A stretch of 64,000 bases of DNA from Escherichia phage UE-S1, in sequence record ON568341.1; one strand, 5' to 3'. A program made the position numbers and the translations under genes. Position 1 is the first letter of the stretch; the number at the start of each line of letters is the position of its first letter. Below the pieces are notes generated by a model. That model was not told the DNA's origin. It made no database searches and was given only the letters and a program-made list of their open reading frames with translations. This document shows, piece after piece, positions 40,666-59,265 of the stretch.

Positions 40666-40693
40666 TTAAGAAAAGCTAGTATCAAGTACTGGC
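40666..40693 (-). terminator. inter-cassette hairpin plus T-run
   Basis: GCTAGTA-TCAAG-TACTGGC with T-rich tract on minus strand. Confidence 0.5.
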
Positions 40694-40704
40694 ATTTAAA
40701 AGAA

Positions 40705-41880: not shown

Positions 41881-41916
41881 ATTCTCTCCTTATTCATTAT
41901 AATATATATTTAATAC

Positions 41917-41948
41917 AAATAATAATGCCAGTACTCAAATACTGGCAT
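41917..41948 (-). terminator. inter-cassette hairpin plus T-run
   Basis: ATGCCAGTA-CTCAA-ATACTGGCAT. Confidence 0.5.
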
Positions 41949-41953
41949 TATTA

Positions 41954-43144: not shown

Positions 43145-43180
43145 ATTTTCCTCCTTTATTCATTATACTATATTTAATCA

Positions 43181-43208
43181 AAAAGAAAAGCCAGTATCAA
43201 GTACTGGC
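43181..43208 (-). terminator. inter-cassette hairpin plus T-run
   Basis: GCCAGTA-TCAAG-TACTGGC; minus strand followed by TTTTCTTTT. Confidence 0.55.
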
Positions 43209-43215
43209 CTATATT

Positions 43216-43953
43216 TTAGACTGAATTGTTAGGATAATATCTCCCCCTTCCCCATATTATTCGCACAGCACCACCACCAGCAGCCGTATAAGAAGAATTA
43301 TCCCATATACTACCACCACCACCATACCTCTTACCAGCACCACCACTACCAGCACCACCATTATATGAACCACCGTAGCTACCACCAATACCATTAGCAC
43401 CTTGAACAATGATACCAGTACCACCACCCGTACCAATGAACGAGGTACTATAGAATGTACCACCCCCACCGCCGCCACCAGCACCATTTTCACCAGTGAT
43501 TGCATCTCCGTTACCACCTTTACCAGTGTAGCCACCAGCACCACCACCAATGACTGCACCACCACTTACACCAGTGTTGCCACCATTACCACCACCATCA
43601 TTAATAGCGTTAGCAGCTTTTCCACCTAGTCCACCAACCGTATATGCACCAGTGAAGCTAACACATAGTTTTTCAGTTCCACGATATAAACCGTTTTCAA
43701 CTGCTGTAGTAGTGTTGGGATGTGTAAGAGAAACACTTAAGTACTCACCACCAGAAACCGGAATATTATTACGCCACGATAAGCCGCCACCAGCACCACG
43801 TTGACCACCCGGCGAAATAACACATACTGATATTTCGGTAACGCCAGCAGGAACTGTAAATTGTGTTGTTCCTATTGTCGTGATTAATTGTTCACCATGT
43901 GGCTTATATTCAATTTTATTCCCGAACTTAACCATTCTTCCAAAAGGTAACAT
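43216..43953 (-). CDS. conserved-N-terminus family protein with glycine-rich body (array member 6)
   Basis: MLPFGRMVKFGN then long GGxGG tracts. Confidence 0.65.
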   Translation of the reverse strand: MLPFGRMVKFGNKIEYKPHGEQLITTIGTTQFTVPAGVTEISVCVISPGGQRGAGGGLSWRNNIPVSGGEYLSVSLTHPNTTTAVENGLYRGTEKLCVSFTGAYTVGGLGGKAANAINDGGGNGGNTGVSGGAVIGGGAGGYTGKGGNGDAITGENGAGGGGGGGTFYSTSFIGTGGGTGIIVQGANGIGGSYGGSYNGGAGSGGAGKRYGGGGSIWDNSSYTAAGGGAVRIIWGRGRYYPNNSV

Positions 43954-43990
43954 AATTCCCTCCTTTATTTGTTATACTATATTTAATACA

Positions 43991-44018
43991 AAAAGAAAAG
44001 CCAGTACTCAGTACTGGC
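43991..44018 (-). terminator. inter-cassette hairpin plus T-run
   Basis: GCCAGTACT-CA-GTACTGGC. Confidence 0.55.
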
Positions 44019-44024
44019 ATAATG

Positions 44025-45167
44025 TCAATAAGTATCCCAAGGTAATGGTGTCTTCCTAAATCCATACCTGGTTGTGCTCGCACCATCACCAGCAATGTAT
44101 CTACCTATACCACATTGGTATAACTCTGTACTACTACATATAGCACCACCTATAGTACCACTACTCCACTGAATTATATTAGAATATGTTATTGGTAAAT
44201 CACTACATTTAGTATATACAGCAACGGTAGAAGCACCACTAATACCACCAAACATACTTCGCTTAGCACCAGTGTAATATATACCATCTGGACTCATAAA
44301 TGCAGAGGTGTAAGTTGTACTGCAATCCACTGGACTTCTTATTGTATTAAGATCGCCTGGATATGTTCTGACACCAAAGGTGTATACATTACCATCAGTT
44401 GTAATACCATTACCTAACTGCCCACTGTTTTGTCCACCACATGTAAGCAACGATGCAGAACCAGAAACAATTGCAGTAGCATTATACGAAGTGCCCATTG
44501 CAATAGAAGCACCAGACAATAGTTTTGGAGTAACAATAGCTGTTGTATTACCCTGGCCTAATTCACCATTTGTGTTTCGTCCCCATGCGTATATGGAAGT
44601 AGTATCCAACCTACATAGTACTGAACCATAACTAAACGTATATCGCATGTCAATTACCGCAGAAGGCAAATTAACCTTAGTTGCAACACTAATAACACCA
44701 CCAGTAACACCACTGTTTGCGTTCATGTTACGACCATATGCATATAAAGAACCATCTGAAGTTTTAATATGCATCATACCATCTGTACAATATAATGCAT
44801 CTATACTCTCCACCGCAACCGGACCCATACTGGTAGTTATATCGGTCCACCCAAGAGTAGTAGTACTAGAAATTAAGTTATTTCCTGCGTATAGTATTCT
44901 ATTATTATTAGTAACTACAACTGTATATCTGGCAGTAACACCAATTAATCGAACATCAGTATATATCTTAGACCACGCACCTAATGAATTGGTGTTTGCA
45001 TCCAAAAAGCCCAACTGCCCATCTGTATTGTATCCAATGCCCCATACATCACCTGCACTGTCCAATAACACTTCATGTGAAAATCCAATCTTAAAATCTT
45101 TTATTGTAGGAACTACCGGATCTGGTGCAATATTCCCGTACTTAACCATTCTAGTAAAAGGTAACAT
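44025..45167 (-). CDS. RCC1-like beta-propeller protein with conserved N-terminus (array member 5)
   Basis: MLPFTRMVKYGNIAP; repeats GYNTDGQLGF, GRNTNGELGQGN, GGQNSGQLGNG. Confidence 0.7.
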   Translation of the reverse strand: MLPFTRMVKYGNIAPDPVVPTIKDFKIGFSHEVLLDSAGDVWGIGYNTDGQLGFLDANTNSLGAWSKIYTDVRLIGVTARYTVVVTNNNRILYAGNNLISSTTTLGWTDITTSMGPVAVESIDALYCTDGMMHIKTSDGSLYAYGRNMNANSGVTGGVISVATKVNLPSAVIDMRYTFSYGSVLCRLDTTSIYAWGRNTNGELGQGNTTAIVTPKLLSGASIAMGTSYNATAIVSGSASLLTCGGQNSGQLGNGITTDGNVYTFGVRTYPGDLNTIRSPVDCSTTYTSAFMSPDGIYYTGAKRSMFGGISGASTVAVYTKCSDLPITYSNIIQWSSGTIGGAICSSTELYQCGIGRYIAGDGASTTRYGFRKTPLPWDTY

Positions 45168-45203
45168 AATTCCCTCCCTTATTCATTATAATATATTTAA
45201 TAC

Positions 45204-45234
45204 AAAAAAGAAAAGCCAGTACTTGAGTACTGGC
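45204..45234 (-). terminator. inter-cassette hairpin plus T-run
   Basis: GCCAGTACT-TG-AGTACTGGC. Confidence 0.55.
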
Positions 45235-45240
45235 ATTATG

Positions 45241-46350
45241 TTATTTTGGTAAATCAATTTTAGTAAAGACTGCAACATCCTCGCTTGCCCCAGGAATGGC
45301 GTAATACGATCCAGTACTATATACATCTCCGTCTTTGGTTAATATTGATGTTAAACCATCACTAAAAAGAACATCCCTAATCTCACTAACTTCAACGGGT
45401 AATTGTAAATTAGTAGCACTATATATTGCACCAGTTTGAGAATTGTTTAATCCCAAACCACGGTTCGCCCCAACACCCTTCTGATATGTACTAGTAATTA
45501 TCATTTGTGTAGCAGTATTTAAGGCAGGTGAATTCGTCATAAACAACGGAGAACTATTAGGCAAAGTACTTGCAGGAACTGCACGAAATGAAGTTGTATC
45601 TGAACTAAGAAAGTTTGGCGTTTGACCACATACGAAATATGATGTACCATTATAGTAATTAAATGCATTACCACCAATGACTGCATCGATTACACCAGAG
45701 CTACGTAATCCCCACGTGTTAATTTGTGTTCGGTTCCCCGTGCCATGCTGACCCCTGTCATTCCACCCAGAACTATATAACTTATTATCTAATGTAATAT
45801 ACATACTGTCATTTGCATTCGTCATTACTTTACGCACATTAGTAGCACATTGAGTTAATGTGTAAATTGATGATGAACCAATACCTAAAGCACCACGATA
45901 TCCATTAGCTCCTGCACCATAGAGTACTGAACTAGTGCTAAGTACAAATATTAAACCATACGAACATACAATATTAGCAATTTCACTCACTGGTATAGCA
46001 CTGGTAAACCAATTAGTTCTTTCAACTAATACTGTGCTGTAAGAAGTAGTTGTAGACGATGTGAACCAATATGTTTCCCCTGATGTCCATATAGTATTAT
46101 CATTTTTAATAATAACAAGTGCACGATCACCTACGAAAAAATTAGAAACATCTGCACTTACTAATATCCATGAAGATACCGTGTTTTTATTACCATTTCC
46201 AGATTCACCACCTTGATTTCTACCTATGTAATATAAATCATGTGAATCAGTTAATAAGAATTGACCCTGTGTAGATGCACCAACTTTAATTATATTTTTA
46301 GGACCAGGTACAATATTCCCATAATCAAACATTCTTACAAAAGGTAACAT
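45241..46350 (-). CDS. RCC1-like beta-propeller protein with conserved N-terminus (array member 4)
   Basis: Track ORF to 46365; start moved to internal ATG (MLPFVRMFDYGNIVP) with GGAG 9 nt upstream. Confidence 0.65.
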   Translation of the reverse strand: MLPFVRMFDYGNIVPGPKNIIKVGASTQGQFLLTDSHDLYYIGRNQGGESGNGNKNTVSSWILVSADVSNFFVGDRALVIIKNDNTIWTSGETYWFTSSTTTSYSTVLVERTNWFTSAIPVSEIANIVCSYGLIFVLSTSSVLYGAGANGYRGALGIGSSSIYTLTQCATNVRKVMTNANDSMYITLDNKLYSSGWNDRGQHGTGNRTQINTWGLRSSGVIDAVIGGNAFNYYNGTSYFVCGQTPNFLSSDTTSFRAVPASTLPNSSPLFMTNSPALNTATQMIITSTYQKGVGANRGLGLNNSQTGAIYSATNLQLPVEVSEIRDVLFSDGLTSILTKDGDVYSTGSYYAIPGASEDVAVFTKIDLPK

Positions 46351-46387
46351 AACTAAAATCTCCATATAATAATTATAATGTATTTAC

Positions 46388-46420
46388 AAAAAAATACCAG
46401 CACATATTTCAGTACTGGTA
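46388..46420 (-). terminator. inter-cassette hairpin plus T-run
   Basis: TACCAG..AGTACTGGTA stem with T7 on minus strand. Confidence 0.5.
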
Positions 46421-46425
46421 TAATG

Positions 46426-47607
46426 TTATGGTAAAATAATAGCTTGTAACGAACTCATACCCAATGTTGGAACACTCGCCTGTGGTGCTGGAGAATTCAA
46501 TTTTGGTGATGAAACCGCATATGACATTCCTGAACCCAAATCTGGATCAAAAACTACAGCACAATAATTCCCACTATATATAAGTCCATTCTTGTATCCT
46601 TGTGCACTTTGAATGCATTTCGTGAACGTACCAATATCTGTAGTGGCATTTATTAAGTTCCTCCCACGATAACCGCAGGTGTATATGAAATTATCATCGC
46701 CTATGTACATACTAGAATCCCCAGAAGAACTACATAGATACGACATATAAGCACGCATGTTTTTAGGAGCAACTGACAATGTACCTGCATAGAATTTATT
46801 ATTCGAACCCGTAATATTACCATCACCCAATGCACCAAAACTTCCCCAGCCAGTACCGTAATATCTCTTATCACTCAAAAATATAATACAGTTGTTATTA
46901 CACATCTTGATTTGATATATCAATGAAGGATCAATCCCAGGGAATGATTCAGTGAATGTTAGAACAGCCGGATCAGTACTAGCATTACATTGATGATATG
47001 TATTAGTACCAGCGGACAAGATTGTTCCATTAGCTAACAGAATTCTCGCAGTACCAGTACCAGCAGTACAAGCAACTGCACTTCCTGCACTTCCGGTGTA
47101 TATTTGTCTGAAAGTAAAGAAACCAACAGTTTTACTTCCCTGCCCACTCCAACCAGTATTATCAACTCCACACGCCCATACTGAACCATCTTGCATGATC
47201 ATCATTACACCAAAGCGTTCTATTGAAATATAAACAATCTTCGTTGTATCAACTGCACTAAATCTAGAAGTTATATCAGTCCATACCTTAACACTTACCG
47301 CCGTCGCACTGGAAGTAGGATCTTCACCAGCTATCATTATCCTCCCATTGTTAGTAAGATACATTGTCTGACTATAACCAGTACTACAAAACTTAACACT
47401 ATCAGTCTCTGGAACTTTTAACCACTCGTTGTAACGTGTTACGTTAGTGTTATTACCTAACTGATAATAGTTATTCATCCCAGATACATATAACACACCA
47501 TCCTTTATTAAACTATAAGTCGCACTATAGTCACTACAGGTATAACGTGTACCCACAGGTGGCTCAACGACGTTCCCGTACTTAACCATTCTCCCAAAAG
47601 GTAACAT
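46426..47607 (-). CDS. RCC1-like beta-propeller protein with conserved N-terminus (array member 3)
   Basis: MLPFGRMVKYGNVVEP; repeats NNYYQLGNN, DNTGWSGQGS, GSFGALGDGN. Confidence 0.7.
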   Translation of the reverse strand: MLPFGRMVKYGNVVEPPVGTRYTCSDYSATYSLIKDGVLYVSGMNNYYQLGNNTNVTRYNEWLKVPETDSVKFCSTGYSQTMYLTNNGRIMIAGEDPTSSATAVSVKVWTDITSRFSAVDTTKIVYISIERFGVMMIMQDGSVWACGVDNTGWSGQGSKTVGFFTFRQIYTGSAGSAVACTAGTGTARILLANGTILSAGTNTYHQCNASTDPAVLTFTESFPGIDPSLIYQIKMCNNNCIIFLSDKRYYGTGWGSFGALGDGNITGSNNKFYAGTLSVAPKNMRAYMSYLCSSSGDSSMYIGDDNFIYTCGYRGRNLINATTDIGTFTKCIQSAQGYKNGLIYSGNYCAVVFDPDLGSGMSYAVSSPKLNSPAPQASVPTLGMSSLQAIILP

Positions 47608-47642
47608 AATAAAATCTCCGTAATTAAATTATATAGTATTTA

Positions 47643-47676
47643 CAAAAAATACCAGTACATATTTCAGTACTGACCT
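47643..47676 (-). terminator. inter-cassette hairpin plus T-run
   Basis: CAGTAC-loop-GTACTG palindrome with T-run. Confidence 0.5.
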
Positions 47677-47680
47677 ATTA

Positions 47681-48802
47681 TTAAAAGGGCAACGGTAACT
47701 CAGTAAAAGTACTTACGTCCGGTAAACCATACATTAAATTAGCATCACCACAGTAATACCACTTCGTAGAATCATGTACCACCGATAAACGCTGTGCACA
47801 TAACACTTCCTGTATGTCATTAAACACCATCGGGACTAACTCATATGTATCTGCAAATGAAGATTCACTACCACTCGCATGAAAAGTATTTGTCCCAGCA
47901 TAAAATAACTGATTAGTGTTCTTACCCACAGCAAATGTTATCAAAACCCCATCATTCTCCCATAAAGAAGAAAACTTATCAACACTACCAGAAAGCTCTG
48001 TGTAAGTACTCGTAATGGCACTCGCCGCCGCCGCATTACCCATCTGTTTATTCAAGTTCTGTCCAGCAATAAAATATCTCGTTCGTGCACTAGAATCAGT
48101 ATATAATAACCCAGTGTTCGTAGTCATCATTCCAATGTCCTTAATCGTCATATCAGTCTGTGAATAACTTAGATACGAAGTTAAATTAACATTATTACCC
48201 AACGAACCGTTAGAACTCATGCCACAACGATGTAATATACCACTTGTATCAACGTAGATAGTACTAACTAAACTCGTATACAACTCTTGTACATTATTCG
48301 CAATAAACACAGCAGTCGCCTTATTACTAACCCCACCAAATGATAGGTTATTATCAAATCCCTTAGCGTATAATTGATTATTAGTAGTCAATAATCCAAT
48401 CGTGTAATAAGACATTTTCATATCCCTTACTGTACTCAAATCTACTGCCCCAAATTGATACGTAACATCTGTCCATTTGAAAATCTGTGCACTACCAACA
48501 CCACCCGTTTCAAACCATTTGTCACCACAGTACAATATGCGATTATCCTTAGTAAAGATAACTGTTAACAATCCACTACCACACGCAAACTTTACATCAC
48601 TTCTAACCTTCGTCCAATCAAGTACATAGGTAGTGGTGTTATTACCTATACCTAACTTGCCATAACGGTTATAACCACGCACCCATAAATCACCACTCTT
48701 AGTAATTAATAGTAATGCGTCTCCTGTACTTATTATTCGAAATCCCGAACTAGGATCAGGGGCAATATTCCCGTACTTAACCATTCTCCCAAAAGGTAAC
48801 AT
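47681..48802 (-). CDS. RCC1-like beta-propeller protein with conserved N-terminus (array member 2)
   Basis: MLPFGRMVKYGNIAPDP; repeats GYNRYGKLGIGNN, SSNGSLGNN. Confidence 0.7.
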   Translation of the reverse strand: MLPFGRMVKYGNIAPDPSSGFRIISTGDALLLITKSGDLWVRGYNRYGKLGIGNNTTTYVLDWTKVRSDVKFACGSGLLTVIFTKDNRILYCGDKWFETGGVGSAQIFKWTDVTYQFGAVDLSTVRDMKMSYYTIGLLTTNNQLYAKGFDNNLSFGGVSNKATAVFIANNVQELYTSLVSTIYVDTSGILHRCGMSSNGSLGNNVNLTSYLSYSQTDMTIKDIGMMTTNTGLLYTDSSARTRYFIAGQNLNKQMGNAAAASAITSTYTELSGSVDKFSSLWENDGVLITFAVGKNTNQLFYAGTNTFHASGSESSFADTYELVPMVFNDIQEVLCAQRLSVVHDSTKWYYCGDANLMYGLPDVSTFTELPLPF

Positions 48803-48837
48803 ATTTTCCTCCTTTATTCATTATACTATATTTAATA

Positions 48838-48869
48838 CAAAAAGAAATGCCAGTATCAAGTACTGGCAT
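48838..48869 (-). terminator. inter-cassette hairpin plus T-run
   Basis: ATGCCAGTA-TCAAG-TACTGGCAT. Confidence 0.55.
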
Positions 48870-48875
48870 ATTAAT

Positions 48876-50024
48876 TCATTGTATAAATGACATATCTACT
48901 TCTGTATAATTAAGAACGTTCTGTCCAGAAATACCACCCATTACTACTATTGCAAGGCCACAATAATATAATTTTCCAGTATCCGTAAGTATAAGTGATC
49001 CAGATGGACTGCGTACCAAATCACACGAACTATTAAAAGAAGTATAAGAAGGAGTATAGGAGTACTGATTATTATTATTACCAACACCTAATTGCCCAAA
49101 CCCATTCGATCCAGAAGCATATAGAACTTCATCTGCTTTGACAATATGTGATGCCATGTTACCAACACAAGTATATAGAGTATAAACTCCTGAACTCAAT
49201 AATGTCGGAGTTTTATATTGTATATCTGTAGATGTAGAAGTACCACCTGTACCAAATTCGTTCCCATATTGTGCACCGAACTGTTTGCCACAAGCGTACA
49301 AATTATTATCCGATTTGATAAAAAATGTACTCTGATAACTTACATTAAAATCTATAACATCCGAAGAAATCATCGTCACCCCAGTAATAGAAGTTTGATT
49401 ACCCGTGCCCAACTGGTAGTAATAGTTAAAACCACAACCCCATAAAGTATTATCTTCTCGCAAATAAATGTTACCAACTGCCTTTTTAACCGAAGTTATA
49501 GTATCTACTCTTTTGAATGTGTTAAAAGAATTAATGTTTGTACCATCACCAAATGATGATATGTTCGATATATTGTTAACTCCACAACAATACAATGTAC
49601 CATCTTTTGTTATCAAATTCACCTTCATATCATAAAAACTACTCATGTATTTTATATCAGAAACATTAACACCACTTGATGTTATCCACGTAGTACAGTC
49701 CGTCCACAAAGTTTTTCTATCAGTTACACCAGTGAATGCCTTCGTGTTACCAGTGATAAAAACTTTTCCAGTACCTTTCTCTTCATACAATTGACAATCA
49801 CTACTGTTATCTTCCAATAGAACTCGTTTAACATTCTCCGCACAAAGAATAAATTTACTCGATGCTACACCTGTACCAGTACCCCAATTCGTCGCAGAAG
49901 ATGCATACAACTTATCAGTATAAGTATCATGAAGATACATAGAATCACTGGAATATATTTTAAAACGCCCTTCTTTCTCAGGTATAATATTCCCGTACTT
50001 AACCATTCTCCCAAAAGGTAACAT
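48876..50024 (-). CDS. RCC1-like beta-propeller protein with conserved N-terminus (array member 1, most upstream)
   Basis: MLPFGRMVKYGNIIPE; repeats GFNYYYQLGTGN, GSNGFGQLGVGNN. Confidence 0.7.
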   Translation of the reverse strand: MLPFGRMVKYGNIIPEKEGRFKIYSSDSMYLHDTYTDKLYASSATNWGTGTGVASSKFILCAENVKRVLLEDNSSDCQLYEEKGTGKVFITGNTKAFTGVTDRKTLWTDCTTWITSSGVNVSDIKYMSSFYDMKVNLITKDGTLYCCGVNNISNISSFGDGTNINSFNTFKRVDTITSVKKAVGNIYLREDNTLWGCGFNYYYQLGTGNQTSITGVTMISSDVIDFNVSYQSTFFIKSDNNLYACGKQFGAQYGNEFGTGGTSTSTDIQYKTPTLLSSGVYTLYTCVGNMASHIVKADEVLYASGSNGFGQLGVGNNNNQYSYTPSYTSFNSSCDLVRSPSGSLILTDTGKLYYCGLAIVVMGGISGQNVLNYTEVDMSFIQ

Positions 50025-51002: not shown

Positions 51003-51188
51003 ATGAATCATATACGCTACTATTACCAACAACTATCCGACAGGGACAAGTACAGCCACAATTCCCATGTATGGTACTACAAACGCGGCAGTATAAGAGA
51101 CAAACAACATTACTTCTGTATTTCTATTAAAGAAGCACTAACAACTAAGTACACGTACAGAGCAGTACTTAAACTAATCTCTATCTAA
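51003..51188 (+). CDS. small protein, family C-like
   Basis: Track ORF in array. Confidence 0.45.
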   Translation: MNHIRYYYQQLSDRDKYSHNSHVWYYKRGSIRDKQHYFCISIKEALTTKYTYRAVLKLISI

Positions 51189-51196
51189 GGAATACT

Positions 51197-51376
51197 ATGC
51201 AAGAATTCTATATAGAACATATAACCATAAAAGACCGTTTCATGTACCACACCTTCGTGAAATACTACAAACTGGGAACAAAAAGTACTAAAAATATTAA
51301 TCTCAATAGCTGCATTCATTCTGCACTAACAAAAGATAATCCCTTCAGGGAAATCCTCGCACTAGCATCTGTATAA
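51197..51376 (+). CDS. small protein, family C (59 aa, below track cut-off)
   Basis: ATG after AAGGAATACT; MQEFYIEHI. Confidence 0.45.
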   Translation: MQEFYIEHITIKDRFMYHTFVKYYKLGTKSTKNINLNSCIHSALTKDNPFREILALASV

Positions 51377-51386
51377 AGGAAACCAA

Positions 51387-52046
51387 ATGAAACTTAATGC
51401 ACACAGCAAACAATACCTTAAGCACTTTAAGTACCTCAACAGTATTCAAGCAGAATCTTTTACACCAGCATATACGTATCACCCTAATGTACTAAAGAAA
51501 CGAAATAAAAAGAAAAAATCCAGAAATGTTCTCGTATCTAAGAACCTCAAATCGTACTTGAAGAAAAATAATATAGCTCTTGCTTTTATTAATATCTATA
51601 ATACTGATTTAAAAGTATTGAGTACTAATACCAGCACAAAAGCACTAAAGAATGCATCTATCTATATACACATGGATAATATCCCGTGCACTATAATTCT
51701 ATCTTCCGGGAATGTATACTTCTTCGGGAATTGTAATAGCACCCATGATATCAGTACTGCACAATTCCAAATCGGAGATATGTACTGCATGGGTTCAGAA
51801 AAAATACACGATAATATGCACTTCTTCCAAAAGCAACGTACTAACGAAACTGATACAGTACTGCAATTCCTCAAAGAACTAGAACACAAAGAATTATCCG
51901 AGGAAGAAGAATTCATGTACAGTACTGTAATCGATAATCCAGGACTCTATAAAAACGCGTACAAACTAACAAAACATGTACAGGAACTTATCAGTACTGA
52001 TAAGAAAATTCATCACCTCATTACGTATATTTCAAACTATGTATAA
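51387..52046 (+). CDS. hypothetical protein (219 aa) within family C array
   Basis: Track ORF; basic N-terminal region. Confidence 0.5.
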   Translation: MKLNAHSKQYLKHFKYLNSIQAESFTPAYTYHPNVLKKRNKKKKSRNVLVSKNLKSYLKKNNIALAFINIYNTDLKVLSTNTSTKALKNASIYIHMDNIPCTIILSSGNVYFFGNCNSTHDISTAQFQIGDMYCMGSEKIHDNMHFFQKQRTNETDTVLQFLKELEHKELSEEEEFMYSTVIDNPGLYKNAYKLTKHVQELISTDKKIHHLITYISNYV

Positions 52047-52221
52047 AGAATACTACATAGAGAAACTCCCAATGCATCTACAACACCATATACCAAACGT
52101 TGCATTGGGCATAACCGAGCACGCAAAGATAATGTTCCAACAATGTACTAAGTACACGCTCATATACGATGATAATCCATATATGCTGTACTACGTAGTA
52201 ATGCTAACATTCAGGTACTAA
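52039..52221 (+). CDS. small protein, family C
   Basis: Track ORF trimmed; MYKEYYIEKLPMHL ... TFRY; ATGTATAA overlap. Confidence 0.55.
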   Translation: MYKEYYIEKLPMHLQHHIPNVALGITEHAKIMFQQCTKYTLIYDDNPYMLYYVVMLTFRY

Positions 52222-52222
52222 T

Positions 52223-52402
52223 ATGAATACTTATAAAGAATTCTACCTCTCGTACCTTAATTCCGATATAGTAACATCCAATACATTCAGTACTAAAATT
52301 ATCTATAATGAAGTAATGAAAGAATGTATTAAAGGTGCTATTAACCCTAAAGATACGTATGACTTGTACTATGCAGTACTAACCCTTGTTTTCACGAAAT
52401 AA
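52223..52402 (+). CDS. small protein, family C (59 aa, below track cut-off)
   Basis: TACTAATATGAATA junction; MNTYKEFYLSYL. Confidence 0.5.
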   Translation: MNTYKEFYLSYLNSDIVTSNTFSTKIIYNEVMKECIKGAINPKDTYDLYYAVLTLVFTK

Positions 52403-52410
52403 CACATAAT

Positions 52411-52602
52411 ATGAATAACCACAAAGAATACTACATAGAGAAACTCCCAATGTATCTCCAACACCTTCTACCAACAGAACCATTGCGTATAGAAAAAAAC
52501 TACGAAAAAGACTACTTCATTCAGTGCACTAAATCCTCGATATATATTGAAGACTATAATCGAGTACTGTATCACATCCTTTTACTAATATATAAGTACT
52601 AA
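52411..52602 (+). CDS. small protein, family C
   Basis: MNNHKEYYIEKLPMYL ... LLLIYKY. Confidence 0.55.
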   Translation: MNNHKEYYIEKLPMYLQHLLPTEPLRIEKNYEKDYFIQCTKSSIYIEDYNRVLYHILLLIYKY

Positions 52603-52603
52603 T

Positions 52604-52792
52604 ATGAATAACCACAAAGAATACTACACACAATTTCTCCCCAGCATTTTGGAACAATACGCCAGATATAAAGTCCCCCTCGATAACGATTTGGCAGTAC
52701 TGGGATTCAATAACTGCATAGAACGAAGTATAGAAAATAGTAATAGCTATGAACAATTATATAACACTATCCTACTTATATTCAGGTACTAA
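52604..52792 (+). CDS. small protein, family C
   Basis: MNNHKEYYTQFLP ... LLIFRY; TAATATG coupling. Confidence 0.55.
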   Translation: MNNHKEYYTQFLPSILEQYARYKVPLDNDLAVLGFNNCIERSIENSNSYEQLYNTILLIFRY

Positions 52793-52793
52793 T

Positions 52794-52982
52794 ATGTATA
52801 AAGAATACTACGCAAAATATTTCCCAATGTATCTCAGAACTAATCTATTAGATAAACCTCGCGATATCAATGCACAAAACGATAAAGTGTACTTTATTAT
52901 GTGCACTAAAGCATGTATACTAGATCATGACAGCTACCATCGAGTACTGTATCATACACTGTACCTAGCTTTCGTATACTAA
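52794..52982 (+). CDS. small protein, family C
   Basis: Track ORF trimmed; MYKEYYAKYFPMYL ... LAFVY. Confidence 0.55.
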   Translation: MYKEYYAKYFPMYLRTNLLDKPRDINAQNDKVYFIMCTKACILDHDSYHRVLYHTLYLAFVY

Positions 52983-52983
52983 A

Positions 52984-53042
52984 ATGTACTCCGGTTTAAT
53001 AGGACTAATATTCTTCTATGAATAATCATAAAGATTTCTACA
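52984..53042 (+). repeat. 59-bp near-identical direct repeat of 50728-50786 (gene-junction duplication)
   Basis: ATGTACTC(A/C)GGTTTAATAGGACTAATATTCTTCTATGAATAATCATAAAGATTTCTA present twice. Confidence 0.8.
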
Positions 53043-53197
53043 TAAGCCATCTGGATATAAACTCCCAAATGCTTATACTACTAAACACAATAGATTTCAA
53101 GGATAAGAAAAAGATCCAACAATTCATTGACCATACGGACCGTGCTGTGAACCAAAATTATATGTACTACATTCTCGCCCTAATATACAGGTACTAA
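53018..53197 (+). CDS. small protein, family C (59 aa, below track cut-off)
   Basis: MNNHKDFYISHL ... LALIYRY; preceded by duplicated junction. Confidence 0.5.
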   Translation: MNNHKDFYISHLDINSQMLILLNTIDFKDKKKIQQFIDHTDRAVNQNYMYYILALIYRY

Positions 53198-53198
53198 T

Positions 53199-53384
53199 AT
53201 GCATAGAGAATACTATATACAATTTGTTAAAGAAAACTACAAACACGCCGTCCCCGTAAACCCTTTAAATTCTAATGACCCAAGTACTATATTCTTGTTC
53301 CATGACGCAATACGTACAGTACTCAATACTAAAGATGAACAAGTGCAGTACGTATTCTTACTTTTACTTATATACAGACACTAA
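53199..53384 (+). CDS. small protein, family C
   Basis: MHREYYIQFV ... LLLIYRH. Confidence 0.55.
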   Translation: MHREYYIQFVKENYKHAVPVNPLNSNDPSTIFLFHDAIRTVLNTKDEQVQYVFLLLLIYRH

Positions 53385-53397
53385 AGCACTAACTAAT

Positions 53398-53598
53398 ATG
53401 AATAAAGAATATAAAGACTTCTATATAAGTAAACTAAAAGAAAATGAACAAGCATGGATTCAACCACTAATAATACTTCCATTTAATAGATATTCATTGA
53501 ACCGATGTACCGAGATTGCTATAGACCCTTGTCCTATTAAAGAGAATGTACAATACAATCAGTACTACTATATCTTAATGCTTATATATAGGAAGTAA
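53398..53598 (+). CDS. small protein, family C
   Basis: Track ORF trimmed; MNKEYKDFYISKL ... LMLIYRK. Confidence 0.55.
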   Translation: MNKEYKDFYISKLKENEQAWIQPLIILPFNRYSLNRCTEIAIDPCPIKENVQYNQYYYILMLIYRK

Positions 53599-54285
53599 TT
53601 AAACACATATAGACAGGGGAAGCTCCGTAGTGGAAGCATTATACAGGCTTTAACATATGTTGCATATGTTAAAATTCAGCCTGGACAAATGCGATCACTA
53701 GGATTCTCCCCAGGCTAAACCCCGTAACTCTACAGAGAAGCCAATAGCTTCTCTTTGTCATAGGTAGTCATAAGTAATCATATATAAACATTTAAGTAAT
53801 CATTCATACGCACGGTAGTGATTAGTATTGAGTACTAGAGTACAGGAATGTTCACGTTTAATCAAGAACGTAGCAGTACTGCCCCAAAAGTATTCAGTAC
53901 TGAAGGTGTCGATATCCCACTAAGTAGGCAGAGGAAGTCTGCCGTACTTTGTAGTTTCCAAGCTCCTTTTCCATTTTTCAAATTACATCAAATGTATTCA
54001 AAAGTAATCACGTAATGATTAGTACTGAATTATTACTTTCACCTTAATTCCAAATACTCTTTTACCCTTCGGGGAAAATCCCATTACCCCTTGAGGCTCC
54101 AGCAAAAAGTTGGAAAGTACTCCATCGTAAATCTGGATCGTAAAAATTTTGGAGTACCTATGAAATAAAAGTTGGATCTTCGAAAGTTGAAATTTACGTT
54201 GGGACATATAGGATTGATGGGATATAATGAGTTTTGTAGAGATACAGATTATACGATTTCAGTACTGAATAATGAAAGAAAGCTA

Positions 54286-54313
54286 TTGACTTTATGATTC
54301 AGTACTGTATAAT
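54286..54313 (+). promoter_or_regulatory. sigma-70-type promoter (TTGACT-16-TATAAT) with no downstream ORF
   Basis: TTGACTTTATGATTCAGTACTGTATAAT inside ORF-free region. Confidence 0.5.
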
Positions 54314-54689
54314 GTTCTATATAGAGAGATGAGTTGCCGCAAACAATTCATTCACTCTACCTCCTGTCGTGAGACAGTACAGAAAAGATAGTTCCTCCTA
54401 TGGGTGGTACATCTTTTTATAACCTCTTTTTTCGTAATATAAACAGTACTGATATTAACAGAATGGTGTCAGTACTGATTTTAATCTAATACAATACACC
54501 CACCAGCTTGTGCTGGTGGATTATCCACTAACAGTATTCAGTACTACATGATAGTCTTCATCCTCCTAGGGTAACATAGTGAGGGCTATTGTGGGAGTAC
54601 TGAATACTCCTTTCACAAGATAGATCTATGGTATAGTACTGACGGATTTTGGGCGTAGTAAGCCTAGGTTAAATTTAGACGTAGAGATG

Positions 54690-54835
54690 TCTAGACCTCC
54701 AGATGGTTGGAAGTAAAGATGGCTATCCCTCTAGGCGGCTGGATGGCTAGATTTCTAGATGGCTGTACTGCTAGACGTTTGGACGGCTAAACGGCTAGAT
54801 GGTTACACGTCTGGAAGTATAGACGGCTAAATCAA
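54690..54835. repeat. iteron-like cluster of short degenerate direct and inverted repeats
   Basis: Recurring CTAGATGG, GGCTAGAT and AGACGGCTAAA units. Confidence 0.6.
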
Positions 54836-55452
54836 AATTTTTATTCTGTTTTTTCCAATAGTTCCCCTACCGCGTGAGGATGTTTTTCCCCGCAGTATCT
54901 GGTGTTAGATTTTTCTGAATCTGGAATCATTATCTAATAAACTGGGGGCAATGTCAACGGCCTGGATGAATATTTTTAAAAAATAATCTAGTACTAAATT
55001 TTGGGCGTAACTATGCACCCGGTGGGCTTGAGTCTTTCTCGACTTGATGAAATAATTATATCAGTACTGGAAAAATAAAGCAATACCATGGAAGCAAAAA
55101 AGTTTTAATTAATTTGCTTGCTATCCTGGGCCGGACTATGGTACTATATTTCAGTACTGAGAAAGTGCGTTTACCTGCTAGGGTGCGGGAGTGTATCCTT
55201 TTTTTATATCTTGAATTTTGGGCGTAATTCCGCACCCTCTGGGGTTTCCGCTTTCTCGCGTCTATGTAGTAATTATACGCTTTTTTAGTACTGAGTCAAT
55301 AGCCAAAAACAAAATAATTGAAAATAATTTAACGCGTTTAAACGGCCTGTAAAGCCCTGAAATGATTAGAATGGTGCAAATGTATAGCTTAGGTGTATTA
55401 ATGCGTTAGAATGCGTCTGAGGCCGTTTTACGTGGTATAGGGATGATTTAGT

Positions 55453-55548
55453 GGATTGATTCAGTACTGAATAATAGTACTCCTATATAGAAAGATAGTT
55501 CCCCTGGATTGATTCAGTACTGAATAATAGTACTCCTATATAGAAAGA
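55453..55548 (+). repeat. tandem direct repeat (~43-bp unit, 2 copies, period ~53)
   Basis: GGATTGATTCAGTACTGAATAATAGTACTCCTATATAGAAAGA twice. Confidence 0.8.
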
Positions 55549-55579
55549 AAACTATTTTAAAAGTATTTGTAGAAAGTAC

Positions 55580-55607
55580 TTGCACAGTACTGAAAAAAGC
55601 GTATAAT
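55580..55607 (+). promoter_or_regulatory. early-type sigma-70 promoter (TTGCAC-16-TATAAT) followed by 5-prime stem-loop 55624-55636
   Basis: Conserved AGTACTTGCA..GCGTATAATGTTTTACATC module then GGGAA-CAC-TTCCC. Confidence 0.6.
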
Positions 55608-55661
55608 GTTTTACATCGAGAGCGGGAACACTTCCCTACTCACTTTTAAGAGATTAAAACG

Positions 55662-56024
55662 ATGGCGACTCAAATCACTAAAATCATTGCTAACCTGGTT
55701 AACTTCCGCGACGATATGAAAGATCTTCCGGCGGCAACGGTTAAAACTCACATTGACGCATACCGCGAACTGATTAAAATGTTGCCGCTTAAGCGTGAAC
55801 AATACGCCGCTAAACTGATGCTTGATGCGATGATCCATAAGATGATCGCCAGTGATTTGACGATGGTTTATCAGTATATGGGCGAAAATTTCGCGGTGTA
55901 TAGTAAACCAGTACCAGGAATGGAAAGTACAGAAGTATTACACGGTTTAAATTTAAAACAAGATGCATGGGATAATATGCCTCGTTTCCTGGTATGGGCT
56001 GACAGTGGCAAAATTTACGAATAA
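55662..56024 (+). CDS. hypothetical protein (120 aa)
   Basis: Track ORF; own promoter and 5-prime hairpin. Confidence 0.6.
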   Translation: MATQITKIIANLVNFRDDMKDLPAATVKTHIDAYRELIKMLPLKREQYAAKLMLDAMIHKMIASDLTMVYQYMGENFAVYSKPVPGMESTEVLHGLNLKQDAWDNMPRFLVWADSGKIYE

Positions 56025-56037
56025 GTTAAAAATTAGT

Positions 56038-56065
56038 TTGACAGTACTGAATAAAAGCGTATAAT
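56038..56065 (+). promoter_or_regulatory. early-type promoter (TTGACA-16-TATAAT) followed by stem-loop 56078-56096
   Basis: TTGACAGTACTGAATAAAAGCGTATAAT then GTGGGGAA-TAG-TTCCCCAC. Confidence 0.6.
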
Positions 56066-56116
56066 GTTTTACATCAGGTGGGGAATAGTTCCCCACTATA
56101 TAAGAGGATTAAAAAA

Positions 56117-57027: not shown

Positions 57028-57278
57028 TCATATTTTTTGAAAAATTTACAATTGCCGGTATTGACTTATTTTGTCAGTACTGGCATAATGTATTCATTGG
57101 CAGATAAGCCGTAGCCCATAGGGTGCGGGAGTGTATCTATAGAAAAATTAGTTTAGTATAGTTACAATTGTGCACCCGGTGGGTTAGCTGTTGTCATGGG
57201 GTATATTATGCCAGTACTTGATAATGCTGTCAATACTTTTTTTACTATTCAGTACTGAAAACTATTTTTAAAAAGTAC

Positions 57279-59022: not shown

Positions 59023-59265
59023 CAACGCGGGGAGATAATAACTCCCCGTTACTTTTTCAGTACTGAATCATTTAATAGACGGATCTCGGCACCCGGTGGG
59101 TTAGTGACTGTTTCGTCTTGATGTAGTAATTATGCCAGTACTGGATGCACTTGTCAACAACTATTTTTCAAATACTTTTTATTAAAATACTTGCAATTAG
59201 TTTTTAAACGCGTATAATGTTTTGCATAGGGGGAGCGGTTCCCCTGGTAACTAAGGAATAAGAAA

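What the first reader, a model, noticed from the sequence alone, without database searches (positions are those of the whole stretch)
53600..55660. Two-kilobase ORF-free region with iteron-like repeats, palindromes and direct repeats
No convincing ORF spans this region. It contains a ~150-bp cluster of short degenerate repeats built on CTAGATGG, GGCTAGAT and AGACGGCTAAA (54690-54835), a ~43-bp unit repeated twice (55453-55548), many copies of the perfect palindrome TTCAGTACTGAA, and several ~70-bp elements of the form TTTTGGGCGTAA..GCACCC..TGTAGTAATTATA..CAGTACTG. Such architecture is typical of replication origins, packaging signals or physical genome ends.
Basis: partly seen in the sequence, partly recalled or inferred. 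Interest (0 to 1): 0.65.

Follow-up and report, generated by a model that had tools for sequence, protein, structure and literature searches.

The report
Jumbo-phage genome end with MetJ-box array
This gene-free 2 kb is where the packaged chromosome of a giant E. coli phage physically begins, and its "iteron" cluster is a run of 19 sequences that look like binding sites for the host's methionine repressor MetJ, a feature that recurs near the DNA ends of unrelated phages.

Summary
The window comes from an Asteriusvirus, a 121Q/PBECO4-like jumbo coliphage. Eight GenBank records of relatives begin or end at one base, which aligns to window 53923. For fEgEco12 that base was fixed by PhageTerm and restriction digests. 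So 53599-53922 is the tail of the unique genome, and 53923-55661 is a 1.74-kb untranslated leader of the ~21-kb direct terminal repeat.

The "replication origin with iterons" guess is not supported. The iteron-like cluster (54677-54828) is a strict 8-bp tandem array of 19 units. Sixteen units pass the published MetJ met-box criterion, at bits per unit close to those of E. coli's own metF and metB operators.

The same array sits in or beside the terminal repeats of Mimasvirus, Eneladusvirus, several T5-like Demerecviridae and two Autographiviridae genera. All but one of these infect hosts from MetJ-bearing bacterial orders.

The leader also holds an inverted Chi pair, four invariant sigma-70 promoter -10 boxes, repeated ~70-nt modules and a genome-wide palindrome, CAGTACTG.

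The terminus is already known for relatives. I found no published description of the MetJ-box array. MetJ binding and its role are inferred, not shown.

The parts
53599..53922 (.). Untranslated tail of the unique genome, immediately left of the terminase left cut. It holds a perfect palindrome (TTAACATATG-TTG-CATATGTTAA, read from the sequence at about 53651-53673), a variable segment, and two CAGTACTG palindromes at 53874 and 53895.
   Evidence: Sequence. Aligns to the end of the fEgEco12 unique region upstream of its right repeat copy. Conservation is low at 53721-53760.
53917..53939 (+). Left cut site and physical left end of virion DNA: CCCACTA|AGTAGGCAGAGGAAGTC. The first packaged base is 53923. 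The direct terminal repeat runs from here past the end of the window.
   Evidence: Eight records begin or end at this exact base. fEgEco12 has a 20,993-bp repeat confirmed by PhageTerm and digests; G17 shows ~20-kb redundancy by read coverage; Sharanji has a 20,668-bp repeat. Cross-genus consensus is CCRCTA| followed by GAAGTC at +12 to +17 in CBB and GAP32.
53927..53943 (+). Terminus-proximal hairpin GGCAGA-GGAAG-TCTGCC, carrying the conserved GAAGTC.
   Evidence: Identical in all Asteriusvirus starts examined.
54143..54158 (.). Invariant motif AAAATTTTGGAGTACC, also present in Pectobacterium phage CBB at about +120 from its terminus.
   Evidence: Invariant run in the six-genome alignment. 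Cross-genus match and the printed CBB leader.
54286..54313 (+). Rightward sigma-70-type promoter P_R1 (TTGACT-16-TATAAT), with CAGTACTG abutting the -10 box.
   Evidence: 11 of 12 consensus positions. The stretch 54298-54314 is invariant in six genomes.
54320..54438 (+). Candidate small RNA transcribed from P_R1: three hairpins, the last followed by a U run.
   Evidence: Fold z-score -2.6; 1 of 200 shuffles folds as well. No Rfam match. Inferred, not shown.
54500..54519 (.). Inverted pair of Chi octamers forming an 8-bp hairpin: CCACCAGC-TTGT-GCTGGTGG. The first copy is oriented for RecBCD entering at the left end. The hairpin is also terminator-like on the minus strand.
   Evidence: present at +578/+590 (or within 10 nt of that) in all 9 other Asteriusvirus left ends examined. 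Two more divergent members differ: EJP2 has both octamers in a different arrangement and CMSTMSU keeps only one. (z-score -3.5).
54646..54657 (.). ATTTTGGGCGTA motif immediately left of the array. It recurs at 54998 and 55215, and as AATTTTGGGTGTA left of the array in Mimasvirus and Eneladusvirus.
   Evidence: Repeat family D10. Sequences printed.
54677..54828 (+). Array of 19 contiguous 8-bp units of the form AGAYGKCT: a met-box-like super-operator and putative binding platform for host MetJ with its co-repressor S-adenosylmethionine (SAM).
   Evidence: 16 of 19 units pass the published MetJ criterion, totalling 110.9 bits. The only three qualifying sites in the 64-kb window all lie inside this array. 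The best matches of the E. coli metF and metB operators in the whole window both fall here, 23 of 32 each. Homologous arrays in other phages.
54853..54874 (.). Conserved block TTCCAATAGTTCCCCTACCGCG to the right of the array. In Mimasvirus and Eneladusvirus it reads TTCCATTAGYTCCCCTTCCGCG.
   Evidence: It forms a hairpin in the leftward transcript (z-score -3.6).
54929..54957 (-). Leftward promoter P_L1 (TTGACA-17-GATAAT), which would transcribe into the array.
   Evidence: 11 of 12. The stretch 54920-54935 is invariant.
54997..55071 (.). ~70-nt module, copy 1: AATTTTGGGCGTA..GCACCCGGTGGGC..ATTATA..CAGTACTG.
55180..55299 (-). ~70-nt module, copy 2. It carries the inverted repeat AGGGTGCGG (55180-55188) / CCGCACCCT (55230-55238) and the leftward promoter P_L2 (TTGACT-16-TATAAT, 55299-55272).
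   Evidence: The leftward transcript folds with z-score -3.9. Homologues: CBB 1037-1117 with a 15-bp stem, XbC2 at 88% over 77 nt, GAP32 and pEa12.
55300..55450 (.). Near-invariant non-coding block of unknown function.
   Evidence: Identity to five other genomes is 0.80-1.00 per 20-nt bin, with invariant runs of 39, 23 and 24 nt. Folding is not significant on either strand.
55452..55548 (+). Recent 53-bp tandem duplication: two exact 44-nt copies, each carrying TTCAGTACTGAA.
   Evidence: Copy number varies among genomes.
55580..55607 (+). Promoter of the first gene in the terminal repeat (TTGCAC-16-TATAAT, spacer holding CAGTACTG). The gene itself is 55662-56024.
   Evidence: Read from the sequence. 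The stretch 55599-55620 is invariant. The gene matches phrog_7352. The same promoter type sits at 56038-56065 with 12 of 12.

Best explanation
**What it is.** The stretch is the junction between the unique part of an Asteriusvirus genome and its ~21-kb direct terminal repeat. In replicated concatemers, terminase cuts between 53922 and 53923 (context CCCACTA|AGTAGG..GAAGTC). Virion DNA therefore starts at 53923. The next 1.74 kb is an untranslated leader that is present at both chromosome ends.

**What the leader carries.** It is a dense set of cis-acting sites rather than genes:
- conserved host-type (sigma-70) promoters firing in both directions, probably making two or three small RNAs;
- an inverted Chi pair ~580 bp from the end;
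- a 152-bp array of 19 met-box-like octamers;
- repeated ~70-nt promoter/hairpin modules;
- the promoter of the first early gene.

**Shown versus inferred.** Shown: the position of the end (by homology), the absence of recognisable genes, the array's anatomy and its match to the published MetJ matrix, and its recurrence in the terminal repeats of other phages. Inferred: that the host MetJ repressor, loaded with its co-repressor S-adenosylmethionine (SAM), polymerises cooperatively on the array (my probability about 0.55).

**Proposed role (about 0.3).** The MetJ filament would serve an end-specific DNA transaction: capping or anchoring the entering end, insulating the convergent promoters P_R1 and P_L1, or marking the packaging start. 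I think titration of MetJ away from the met regulon is less likely. The properly oriented Chi would tame RecBCD entering at the left end and favour RecA-mediated recombination between the two repeat copies (about 0.4).

The confidence figure below refers to the terminus-and-leader identity only.
For: **Terminus.**
- Eight records begin or end at the base aligned to 53923.
- The two fEgEco12 repeat copies are identical over the 4000 nt compared.
- fEgEco12's ends were verified by PhageTerm and restriction digests. G17's redundancy was seen by read coverage. Sharanji's repeat was called by PhageTerm.
- The homologous cut context appears in CBB (coverage plus pulsed-field gel), in GAP32, and in the XbC2 record start (its repeat was called by PhageTerm).

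**Non-coding.** No PHROG or Pfam family matches the internal ORFs, while all flanking genes match one.

**Functional constraint.** 54920-55620 is more conserved (0.9-1.0) than the flanking genes, and four promoter -10 boxes are invariant.

**Shared architecture.** Mimasvirus and Eneladusvirus also have a ~1.7-1.8-kb ORF-free leader, with their arrays starting 648-685 nt in.

**MetJ reading of the array.**
- Strict 8-bp period.
- 16 of 19 units pass the criterion of Augustus & Spicer 2011, at a mean of 5.9 bits per unit. The same scoring gives 6.2 for the metF operator and 7.8 for the metB operator.
- The chance that an arbitrary 8-mer unit scores at least 8 bits in any phase is about 0.006.
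- Providencia phage PR1 carries 9 near-consensus boxes at 9.8 bits per unit.
- Arrays lie in or at the terminal repeats of PR1, VF16, NNA-G4, CBB and vB_Ec-M-J.
- Host genera of array-bearing phages fall in Enterobacterales, Vibrionales, Aeromonadales and Alteromonadales, the orders that have MetJ.
- No phage encodes a MetJ homologue.

**Chi.**
Against: **Terminus.** No reads from this genome were available, so the end is placed by homology only. Some of the eight records may have been oriented to copy earlier ones.

**MetJ.**
- Binding is untested.
- Position 6 of the unit is G in 53% of phage units, against about 10% in natural half-boxes. A different ribbon-helix-helix protein with a similar site is therefore possible.
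- Xanthomonas phage XbC2 keeps a good array although Xanthomonadales lack MetJ. Its closest relative infects Erwinia.
- T5 itself and many coliphages lack arrays.
- The array-bearing phages were found by BLAST from related seeds, so the host distribution is biased.
- Distance from the array to the nearest physical end ranges from 0 to about 900 bp. That argues against a precise architectural role in cleavage.

**Chi.** The pair is missing from Mimasvirus and Eneladusvirus, apart from one Chi in XbC2. It is altered in EJP2 and CMSTMSU. It could simply be a terminator stem.
Confidence: 0.88

Rival explanations
1. Replication origin: the 8-bp cluster acts as iterons for an initiator, and the nearby promoters and A+T-rich DNA provide priming and unwinding, as in T4-type R-loop origins.
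For: Dense repeats and promoters lie in a gene-free region. The cumulative GC skew reaches its local minimum at about 53-54 kb. T4-type origins do use a promoter plus a downstream unwinding element (own knowledge).
Against: The units are contiguous 8-mers, unlike spaced 17-22-bp iterons. No consensus DnaA box lies in 53500-55700. No initiator-like gene is adjacent. The same array lies in the terminal repeats of Demerecviridae and Autographiviridae, whose replication systems differ, and T5's origins map near the genome centre. Most of the negative skew comes from minus-strand genes at 39-50 kb.
Confidence: 0.07
2. The array is the recognition (pac-like) site of a phage protein, such as the small terminase subunit or another early DNA-binding protein. 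Its resemblance to MetJ boxes would then be coincidental or convergent.
For: The array always lies in or beside a terminal repeat, within about 1 kb of a physical end or repeat boundary. T7 has arrays of short repeats flanking its terminal repeat (own knowledge). The systematic G at position 6 departs from the MetJ consensus.
Against: Three phage groups with unrelated packaging proteins share the same octamer. That fits a common host factor better. The unit's score lies in the top 0.02-0.06% of all 8-mers under the MetJ matrix. PR1's boxes are near-consensus with T at position 6. Host genera track the MetJ distribution. The distance to the cut varies widely.
Confidence: 0.2
3. The array works as a decoy. 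Replicating phage DNA would titrate MetJ off host operators and derepress methionine and SAM synthesis for the phage's benefit.
For: About 19 boxes per repeat copy, multiplied by many genome copies, could exceed the cellular MetJ pool (inference). The array sits in the first DNA that can enter the cell.
Against: Titration does not require a terminal position, yet the array is terminal in every group examined. T5-like phages degrade host DNA during first-step transfer, which would make derepression pointless (abstract of 10.64898/2026.04.02.716235; also own knowledge). A single infecting genome carries too few sites to titrate the pool early.
Confidence: 0.12
4. The region mainly encodes small proteins or non-coding RNAs, and the repeats are incidental promoter and terminator elements.
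For: Four invariant promoter -10 boxes. The predicted transcripts fold better than shuffled controls, with z-scores of -2.6 to -3.9. Some records annotate short hypothetical genes here.
Against: No PHROG or Pfam match and no Rfam match. The annotated ORFs differ between records. Transcription does not account for the strict 8-bp array or for the terminus. This reading complements the main explanation rather than replacing it.
Confidence: 0.3

Closest known systems
Direct terminal repeats of Asteriusvirus and other Rak2-like jumbo phages (fEgEco12, G17, vB_Ec-M-J, Sharanji, CBB, XbC2)
   Same: The first bases of the repeat are identical (AGTAGGCAGAGGAAGTCTGCC...). The genes on both sides are syntenic, and the first gene starts about 1.7 kb in. 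The cut context is conserved in Mimasvirus.
   Different: The papers I read give the repeat length and the ends. None of them describes the anatomy of the untranslated leader: no mention of intergenic or non-coding features. CBB's promoter survey does not cover it either.
E. coli MetJ operators (tandem met boxes, consensus AGACGTCT; for example at metF and metJ/metB)
   Same: Contiguous 8-bp units in one phase. Per-unit scores under the published matrix equal those of real operators. Base preferences match at seven of eight positions. The window stretch AGACGTTTGGACGGCTAAACGGCTAGATGGTT matches the metF operator at 23 of 32 positions.
   Different: There are 19 units here (5-28 in other phages), against the 4 qualifying boxes I scored in each E. 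coli operator. The array does not overlap the promoter of a met gene. It lies in a phage terminal repeat. G replaces T at position 6 in about half the units.
Phage T5 untranslated repeat regions of the left terminal repeat, including the injection stop signal (Davison, bioRxiv 10.1101/866236)
   Same: A large untranslated region inside a long terminal repeat, crowded with direct repeats, inverted repeats and palindromes, conserved more strongly than neighbouring genes, and proposed to bind a host protein (DnaA). In T5 relatives PR1 and VF16 the met-box array sits in that very region, next to DnaA boxes, T5-type DRD repeats and the homologue of the 7.9% nick site.
   Different: Here the region lies at the outer (left) end of the repeat, not the inner end. 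No DnaA boxes are present. T5 itself has no met-box array. Two-step DNA transfer is not known for these jumbo phages.
Lambda cos with its host IHF sites, and the T7 left end with host-polymerase promoters and short-repeat arrays beside the terminal repeat (own knowledge)
   Same: In each case a terminase cut site is combined with nearby host-factor sites or strong host promoters on the first DNA to enter the cell.
   Different: The end type differs (long blunt-type repeat versus cohesive ends or a 160-bp repeat). The host factor differs. None of the defining sequences is shared.
Chi (GCTGGTGG), the RecBCD regulatory sequence
   Same: Exact octamers on both strands. The copy at 54500 is in the orientation RecBCD would recognise when entering at the left end (orientation rule from own knowledge).
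   Different: The two copies are arranged as an 8-bp hairpin 578 bp from a phage DNA end. Function is untested. The pair is absent in the sister genera.

Membership tests
Boundary of a direct terminal repeat (physical left end) of Rak2-like jumbo phages | Sequence homologous to an experimentally determined terminus, with unique-region sequence on one side and repeat sequence on the other | tested here: met
   window 53923 aligns to base 1 and to base 353,741 of fEgEco12. The upstream sequence aligns only to the internal copy.
Boundary of a direct terminal repeat (physical left end) of Rak2-like jumbo phages | Two-fold read coverage and a pile-up of read starts at the boundary in this genome's own sequencing data | not testable with these tools
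   No reads are available.
Boundary of a direct terminal repeat (physical left end) of Rak2-like jumbo phages | A second, identical copy of the repeat and a right-hand boundary | not testable with these tools
   By homology the right boundary would lie about 21 kb downstream, beyond the window's end. In fEgEco12 and CBB it reads GTAACSCT|TAGCGA.
MetJ operator (tandem met boxes) | Two or more contiguous 8-bp boxes in one phase | tested here: met
   19 units, with a lag-8 periodicity signal.
MetJ operator (tandem met boxes) | Each box scores at least a quarter of the consensus and the site total reaches the consensus (12.58 bits) under the Augustus & Spicer 2011 matrix | tested here: met
   16 of 19 boxes pass, totalling 110.9 bits. 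Shuffled windows give at most 3 boxes in a run.
MetJ operator (tandem met boxes) | The host encodes MetJ | tested here: met
   E. coli metJ was fetched. MetJ is confined to five gammaproteobacterial orders. The hosts of array-bearing phages fall in four of them, with one Xanthomonas exception.
MetJ operator (tandem met boxes) | Overlaps the promoter of a methionine or SAM pathway gene | tested here: not met
   The neighbours are untranslated DNA and genes in PHROGs of unknown function. I therefore do not file it as a met-regulon operator, only as a MetJ-box-like array.
MetJ operator (tandem met boxes) | SAM-dependent binding of MetJ | not testable with these tools
   Needs a gel shift, footprint or ChIP experiment.
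Iteron-type replication origin | Spaced direct repeats of about 17-22 bp next to an initiator gene | tested here: not met
   The units are contiguous 8-mers. No initiator family was found in the adjacent ORFs.
Iteron-type replication origin | DnaA boxes | tested here: not met
   No TTWTNCACA on either strand in 53500-55700. I did not test for an A+T-rich unwinding element.
Iteron-type replication origin | Origin activity | not testable with these tools
   Needs marker-frequency analysis or a plasmid origin assay.
T5-type injection-stop region | Untranslated, repeat-rich, conserved region inside a long terminal repeat | tested here: met
T5-type injection-stop region | Paired DnaA boxes and a position at the inner end of the left repeat, near the first-step-transfer shear point | tested here: not met
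   No DnaA boxes. The region is at the outer end of the repeat.
Chi site | Exact GCTGGTGG in the orientation met by RecBCD entering from the nearby DNA end | tested here: met
   CCACCAGC on the top strand at 54500 and GCTGGTGG at 54512. Activity is not testable here.

The most novel reading that the evidence does not exclude
Virulent phages with terminal repeats, from at least three unrelated groups, have each acquired a super-operator of 5-28 tandem met boxes inside or at the edge of their terminal repeats. The groups are the Rak2-like jumbo myoviruses, T5-like Demerecviridae, and the Autographiviridae genera Ermolevavirus and Drulisvirus. On this reading the array recruits the host MetJ repressor, loaded with S-adenosylmethionine, as a structural or sensing component of the chromosome end. 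It could cap or anchor the end, help pause DNA entry, or couple DNA entry or packaging to the cell's SAM level. That would be a new use of a metabolic repressor by phages, and it would give a handle on the unexplained untranslated end regions of T5-like and jumbo phages.
Probability: 0.4. Interest if true: 0.8.

Novelty: new variant of a known kind. Interest (0 to 1): 0.6.

Why it matters
**Annotation.** Fixing the physical end at 53923 lets this genome be oriented and annotated correctly. It identifies 53923 onward as the start of the ~21-kb terminal repeat, which carries host-promoter-driven early genes.

**Biology.** The untranslated end regions of long-repeat phages are conserved more strongly than their genes, yet they remain unexplained. 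T5's injection stop signal is the classic case. Recognising one of their modules as a met-box array gives a specific candidate, host MetJ with SAM. That can be tested with a gel shift, a metJ deletion and an array deletion.

**If confirmed.** It would show a metabolic repressor co-opted for handling phage DNA ends in several phage families. It might also link infection to the SAM pool, which is already a battleground between phages and restriction systems.

**Related leads.** The oriented Chi pair near the end and the genome-wide CAGTACTG palindrome are further cheap experimental leads.

Tried and rejected
- **Rfam.** Gathering thresholds on the whole window gave only tRNAs. E-value mode on 53400-56100 gave one chance plant microRNA hit at E = 0.41.
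- **Small ORFs inside the region.** No PHROG or Pfam family matched.
- **Tandem Repeats Finder.** It missed the 8-bp array because the copies are too degenerate. An autocorrelation script found it.
- **Phage-encoded MetJ.** A tblastn search of E. coli MetJ against 50,697 phage records found only three host-contaminated records.
- **Host or prophage origin of the array.** No match in 5,426 complete E. coli genomes.
- **T5's own DRD repeats.** TGTGCAAATCCGACA is a different repeat, and T5 has no qualifying met-box run.
- **DnaA boxes in the leader.** None found.
- **TrpR-type 8-bp CTAG spacing.** I considered this from memory and rejected it. The flanks read TCTAGA or GCTAGA, not ACTAGT.
- **Covariation in the ~70-nt module.** The two arms are conserved in sequence across genera, so there is no informative compensatory change. 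I built no covariance model.
- **Literature.** Searches linking MetJ or met boxes to phage ends found nothing.
- **The 44-nt repeat.** It proved to be a lineage-specific duplication, not a conserved element.
Full report
**Identity of the window.** The finding's region matches 43 phage records at 87-92% identity. Nearly all are Asteriusvirus, the 121Q/PBECO4-like jumbo coliphages of about 350 kb, and most leave the stretch unannotated. The window is 30-40% G+C with genes mostly on the + strand.

**Checking the observation.** Only six ORFs of 41-62 aa overlap 53600-55660. The four longest have no PHROG or Pfam match, whereas every flanking gene I tested does.
- Two exact 44-nt copies lie 53 nt apart at 55452-55548.
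- ~70-nt elements lie at 54997 and 55214, with further copies near 57.2 and 59.1 kb.
- CAGTACTG occurs 11 times in the region and 53 times in the window, against 0.75 expected.
- The iteron-like cluster is more regular than described. It is 19 contiguous 8-bp units at 54677-54828, with the strongest lag-8 periodicity in the whole window.

**The region contains the physical left end of the genome.**
- Phage fEgEco12 (374,733 bp) has 20,993-bp direct terminal repeats, found by PhageTerm and confirmed by restriction digests (PMC13070987).
- Its base 1 and its base 353,741 both read AGTAGGCAGAGGAAGTCTGCC. The two copies are identical over the 4000 nt I compared, and they align to window 53923.
- Seven more records start or stop at the same base: vB_Ec-M-J (repeat annotated), G17 (~20-kb redundancy by coverage, PMC6563267), WPEC5, E9.1, CRJP21, BAU.Micro_ELP-22 and BF17.
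- Sharanji has a 20,668-bp repeat by PhageTerm.
- The cut context is conserved beyond the genus:

| Genus / phage | Left cut context |
|---|---|
| Asteriusvirus | CCCACTA\|AGTAGGCAGAGGAAGTC |
| Mimasvirus CBB | CCGCTA\|TATCCGTTCCTGAAGTC |
| Mimasvirus GAP32 | CCACTA\|TATCTGTTCCTGAAGTC |

- In each case a CAGTACTG palindrome lies 10-20 nt to the left of the cut.
- CBB's ends came from read depth and a pulsed-field gel. XbC2's repeat came from PhageTerm.
- The right boundary reads GTAACSCT|TAGCGA in fEgEco12 and CBB. In this genome it lies outside the window.

So 53599-53922 ends the unique genome. From 53923 to 55661 is the untranslated start of the terminal repeat, which continues past 64000.

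**Architecture of the leader.** Mimasvirus and Eneladusvirus records also open with 1.7-1.8 kb free of genes. Local alignment shows the same modules in the same order:
- the AAATTTTGGAGTACC motif;
- AATTTTGGGYGTA, then the 8-bp array, then TTCCAWTAGYTCCCCTWCCGCG;
- a ~70-nt module with an inverted repeat of 9-15 bp.

Within Asteriusvirus, 54920-55620 is 0.9-1.0 identical across six genomes, including the divergent EJP2 and CMSTMSU. That is higher than the flanking genes. The invariant runs include the -10 boxes of four sigma-70-type promoters:

| Promoter | Strand | Coordinates |
|---|---|---|
| P_R1 | + | 54286-54313 |
| P_L1 | - | 54957-54929 |
| P_L2 | - | 55299-55272 |
| First-gene promoter | + | 55580-55607 |

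The predicted transcripts fold better than shuffled controls, with z-scores of -2.6 to -3.9. No Rfam family matches. The 44-nt duplication is lineage-specific.

**The array looks like a MetJ super-operator.** Read in one phase, the units are AGAYGKCT. The met-box consensus is AGACGTCT, and MetJ operators are tandem 8-bp boxes (PMC4239095). I used the published half-box matrix and thresholds of Augustus & Spicer 2011 (PMC3228920).
- Sixteen of the 19 units qualify, totalling 110.9 bits.
- The only three qualifying sites in the 64-kb window all lie in this array. Shuffled windows never give more than three boxes in a run.
- The mean is 5.9 bits per unit. The same script gives 6.2 for the E. coli metF operator and 7.8 for metJ/metB.
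- The best matches of those two operators anywhere in the window both fall inside the array, in register, at 23 of 32 positions.
- An arbitrary 8-mer unit would reach 8 bits in any phase with probability of about 0.006.
- The one systematic departure is G instead of T at position 6 in 53% of units.

**The same array recurs at phage ends**.

| Phage (group) | Array position | Units | Terminal-repeat context |
|---|---|---|---|
| fEgEco12 (Asteriusvirus) | 763-914 | 19 | Inside the left repeat |
| EJP2 (Asteriusvirus) | not mapped to an end | 24 | Homologous leader |
| CBB (Mimasvirus) | 685-804 | 15 | Inside the annotated repeat |
| XbC2 (Mimasvirus) | 648-775 | 16 | Record start matches the CBB terminus |
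| GAP32 (Mimasvirus) | 3466-3585 | 15 | About 670-790 nt from the CBB-homologous cut site |
| pEa_SNUABM_12 (Eneladusvirus) | 673-808 | 17 | Record start matches the CBB terminus |
| Serratia BF (Eneladusvirus) | 673-800 | 16 | Record start matches the CBB terminus |
| Aeromonas AhSzq-1 (Demerecviridae) | 108799-109022 | 28, all qualifying | About 3.5 kb from the end of a partial record; ends not mapped |
| Vibrio Pontus (Demerecviridae) | about 470-600 | 17 | Circular record |
| Providencia PR1 (Demerecviridae) | 9620-9691 | 9, at 9.8 bits per unit | Repeat is 1-10,461 |
| Vibrio VF16 (Demerecviridae) | 6990-7029 | 5 | Repeat is 1-7,427 by PhageTerm |
| PGT2 (Ermolevavirus) | 38-109 | 9 | Start of the record |
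| Klebsiella NNA-G4 (Drulisvirus) | 44313-44360 | 6 | Repeat annotated from 44320 |

- In PR1 and VF16 the array sits in the T5-type untranslated repeat region. It lies beside DnaA boxes, T5-type DRD repeats and the homologue of T5's 7.9% nick site. T5 itself has no array.
- Host genera of array-bearing phages are Escherichia, Salmonella, Klebsiella, Erwinia, Serratia, Pectobacterium, Cronobacter, Yersinia, Providencia, Vibrio, Aliivibrio, Aeromonas and Pseudoalteromonas. All belong to orders that have MetJ.
- The single exception is Xanthomonas phage XbC2. Its closest relative infects Erwinia.
- No phage encodes a MetJ homologue, and E. coli genomes contain nothing similar.
- I found no paper describing this.

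**Other features.**
- An 8-bp hairpin, CCACCAGC-TTGT-GCTGGTGG, at 54500-54519 is an inverted pair of exact Chi octamers. It is conserved at about +578/+590 in all 9 other Asteriusvirus left ends I examined, and absent from the sister genera apart from a single Chi in XbC2. Two more divergent members differ: EJP2 has both octamers in another arrangement, and CMSTMSU keeps only one.
- By the known polarity of Chi recognition (own knowledge), the first copy faces RecBCD entering at the left end.
- CAGTACTG is about four times denser outside ORFs than inside, and still far above chance inside them. Twenty of the 53 copies abut a -10-like hexamer, typically as TTGACA-N8-CAGTACTG-TATAAT.

**How it most likely works.**
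- *Shown:* the position of the end (by homology), the non-coding nature, the conserved modular leader, and the array's fit to the MetJ matrix and its recurrence in terminal repeats.
- *Inferred:* terminase recognises the CCRCTA|..GAAGTC context and cuts at 53922/53923. After the DNA enters the cell, host RNA polymerase uses the conserved promoters. The Chi pair moderates RecBCD and promotes recombination between the repeat copies. MetJ with SAM coats the 152-bp array, which lies between the convergent promoters P_R1 and P_L1.
- *Role of the array:* I favour an end-specific role (cap or anchor, insulator, or packaging mark) over titration of the met regulon. The terminal position is the constant feature across three phage groups. 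T5-like phages also destroy host DNA early (own knowledge).

**Rivals.** The rivals are an iteron origin, a phage-protein (terminase-type) site, a MetJ decoy, and a small-RNA or small-protein locus. Each is weighed in its own section. The origin reading fails the tests I could run, though origin activity itself is untested.

**Verdict.** The terminus is already known for close relatives. The anatomy of the leader, and above all the met-box array shared by unrelated terminal-repeat phages, appears to be undescribed and is directly testable.

Noticed in passing
Whole window, e.g. 19095, 32042, 56042, 58737, 63026: The palindrome CAGTACTG occurs 53 times against 0.75 expected, and AGTACT 211 times. 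It is about 4 times denser outside ORFs, and 20 of 53 copies abut a -10-like hexamer, often as TTGACA-N8-CAGTACTG-TATAAT. It also lies just left of the terminase cut and is common in Mimasvirus leaders. It looks like the operator of an unknown dimeric regulator. Its core AGTACT is shared with the E. coli SlmA site GTGAGTACTCAC (recalled from memory, untested).
   Followed up: partly
Window 39481-50024 (- strand): Nine consecutive minus-strand genes (eight of 373-396 aa, one of 245 aa) are diverged paralogues at 25-40% identity (the short one matches only over short stretches). This is the only long block on the minus strand, and it accounts for most of the negative GC skew.
   Followed up: partly
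Window 51003-53598 (+ strand): A run of ~60-aa ORFs forms a paralogue family (27-48% identity; one matches phrog_11711). Although they are on the + strand, this block has negative GC skew and strongly positive AT skew, unlike other + strand genes.
   Followed up: partly
Window 43274, 43475, 43532, 43787 (- strand); 12678 and 60984 (+ strand): Chi octamers are over-represented in the window as a whole: 8 against about 0.35 expected. Four of them lie within one minus-strand gene (43216-43953).
   Followed up: no
Window 57205-57233 (- strand) and about 57150-57260, 59060-59145: Further copies of the ~70-nt module lie between + strand genes of the terminal repeat. Each carries a near-consensus sigma-70 promoter pointing leftward (for example TTGACA-17-CATAAT with an upstream TG), so antisense transcription toward the genome end seems to be a repeated theme.
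   Followed up: partly
L025 (Providencia phage PR1, 9500-9720), L029 (Vibrio phage VF16, 6900-7200), L018, L019: In T5-like phages the met-box array is flanked on one side by DnaA boxes (TGTGGATAA). On the other side lies CCCTCTGCGC, which matches the T5 sequence annotated as the 7.9% major nick, followed by T5-type DRD repeats (GTGCAAATCCGA). The jumbo phages have a C-rich block, TTCCCCTACCGCG, about 25-30 nt right of their array. Whether that block is also a nick site is unknown.
   Followed up: partly
L015 (Xanthomonas phage XbC2, 648-775): XbC2 keeps a 16-unit met-box array although Xanthomonadales lack MetJ. Its closest relative, Kaldavass (84.6% similar), infects Erwinia. This points to a recent host shift, a doubtful host assignment, or a binder other than MetJ.
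   Followed up: partly
Window 71-145: ARAGORN calls a tRNA with a four-base anticodon (tcat) and no assigned amino acid. Rfam scores the same locus as a tRNA at 51.8 bits. It belongs to a tRNA cluster at 71-4849.
   Followed up: no
Window 55300-55450: A 150-nt non-coding block is almost invariant across six Asteriusvirus genomes that are otherwise only about 80-89% identical across this region. It shows no significant RNA fold, no ORF and no cross-genus match, so its function is unexplained.
   Followed up: partly
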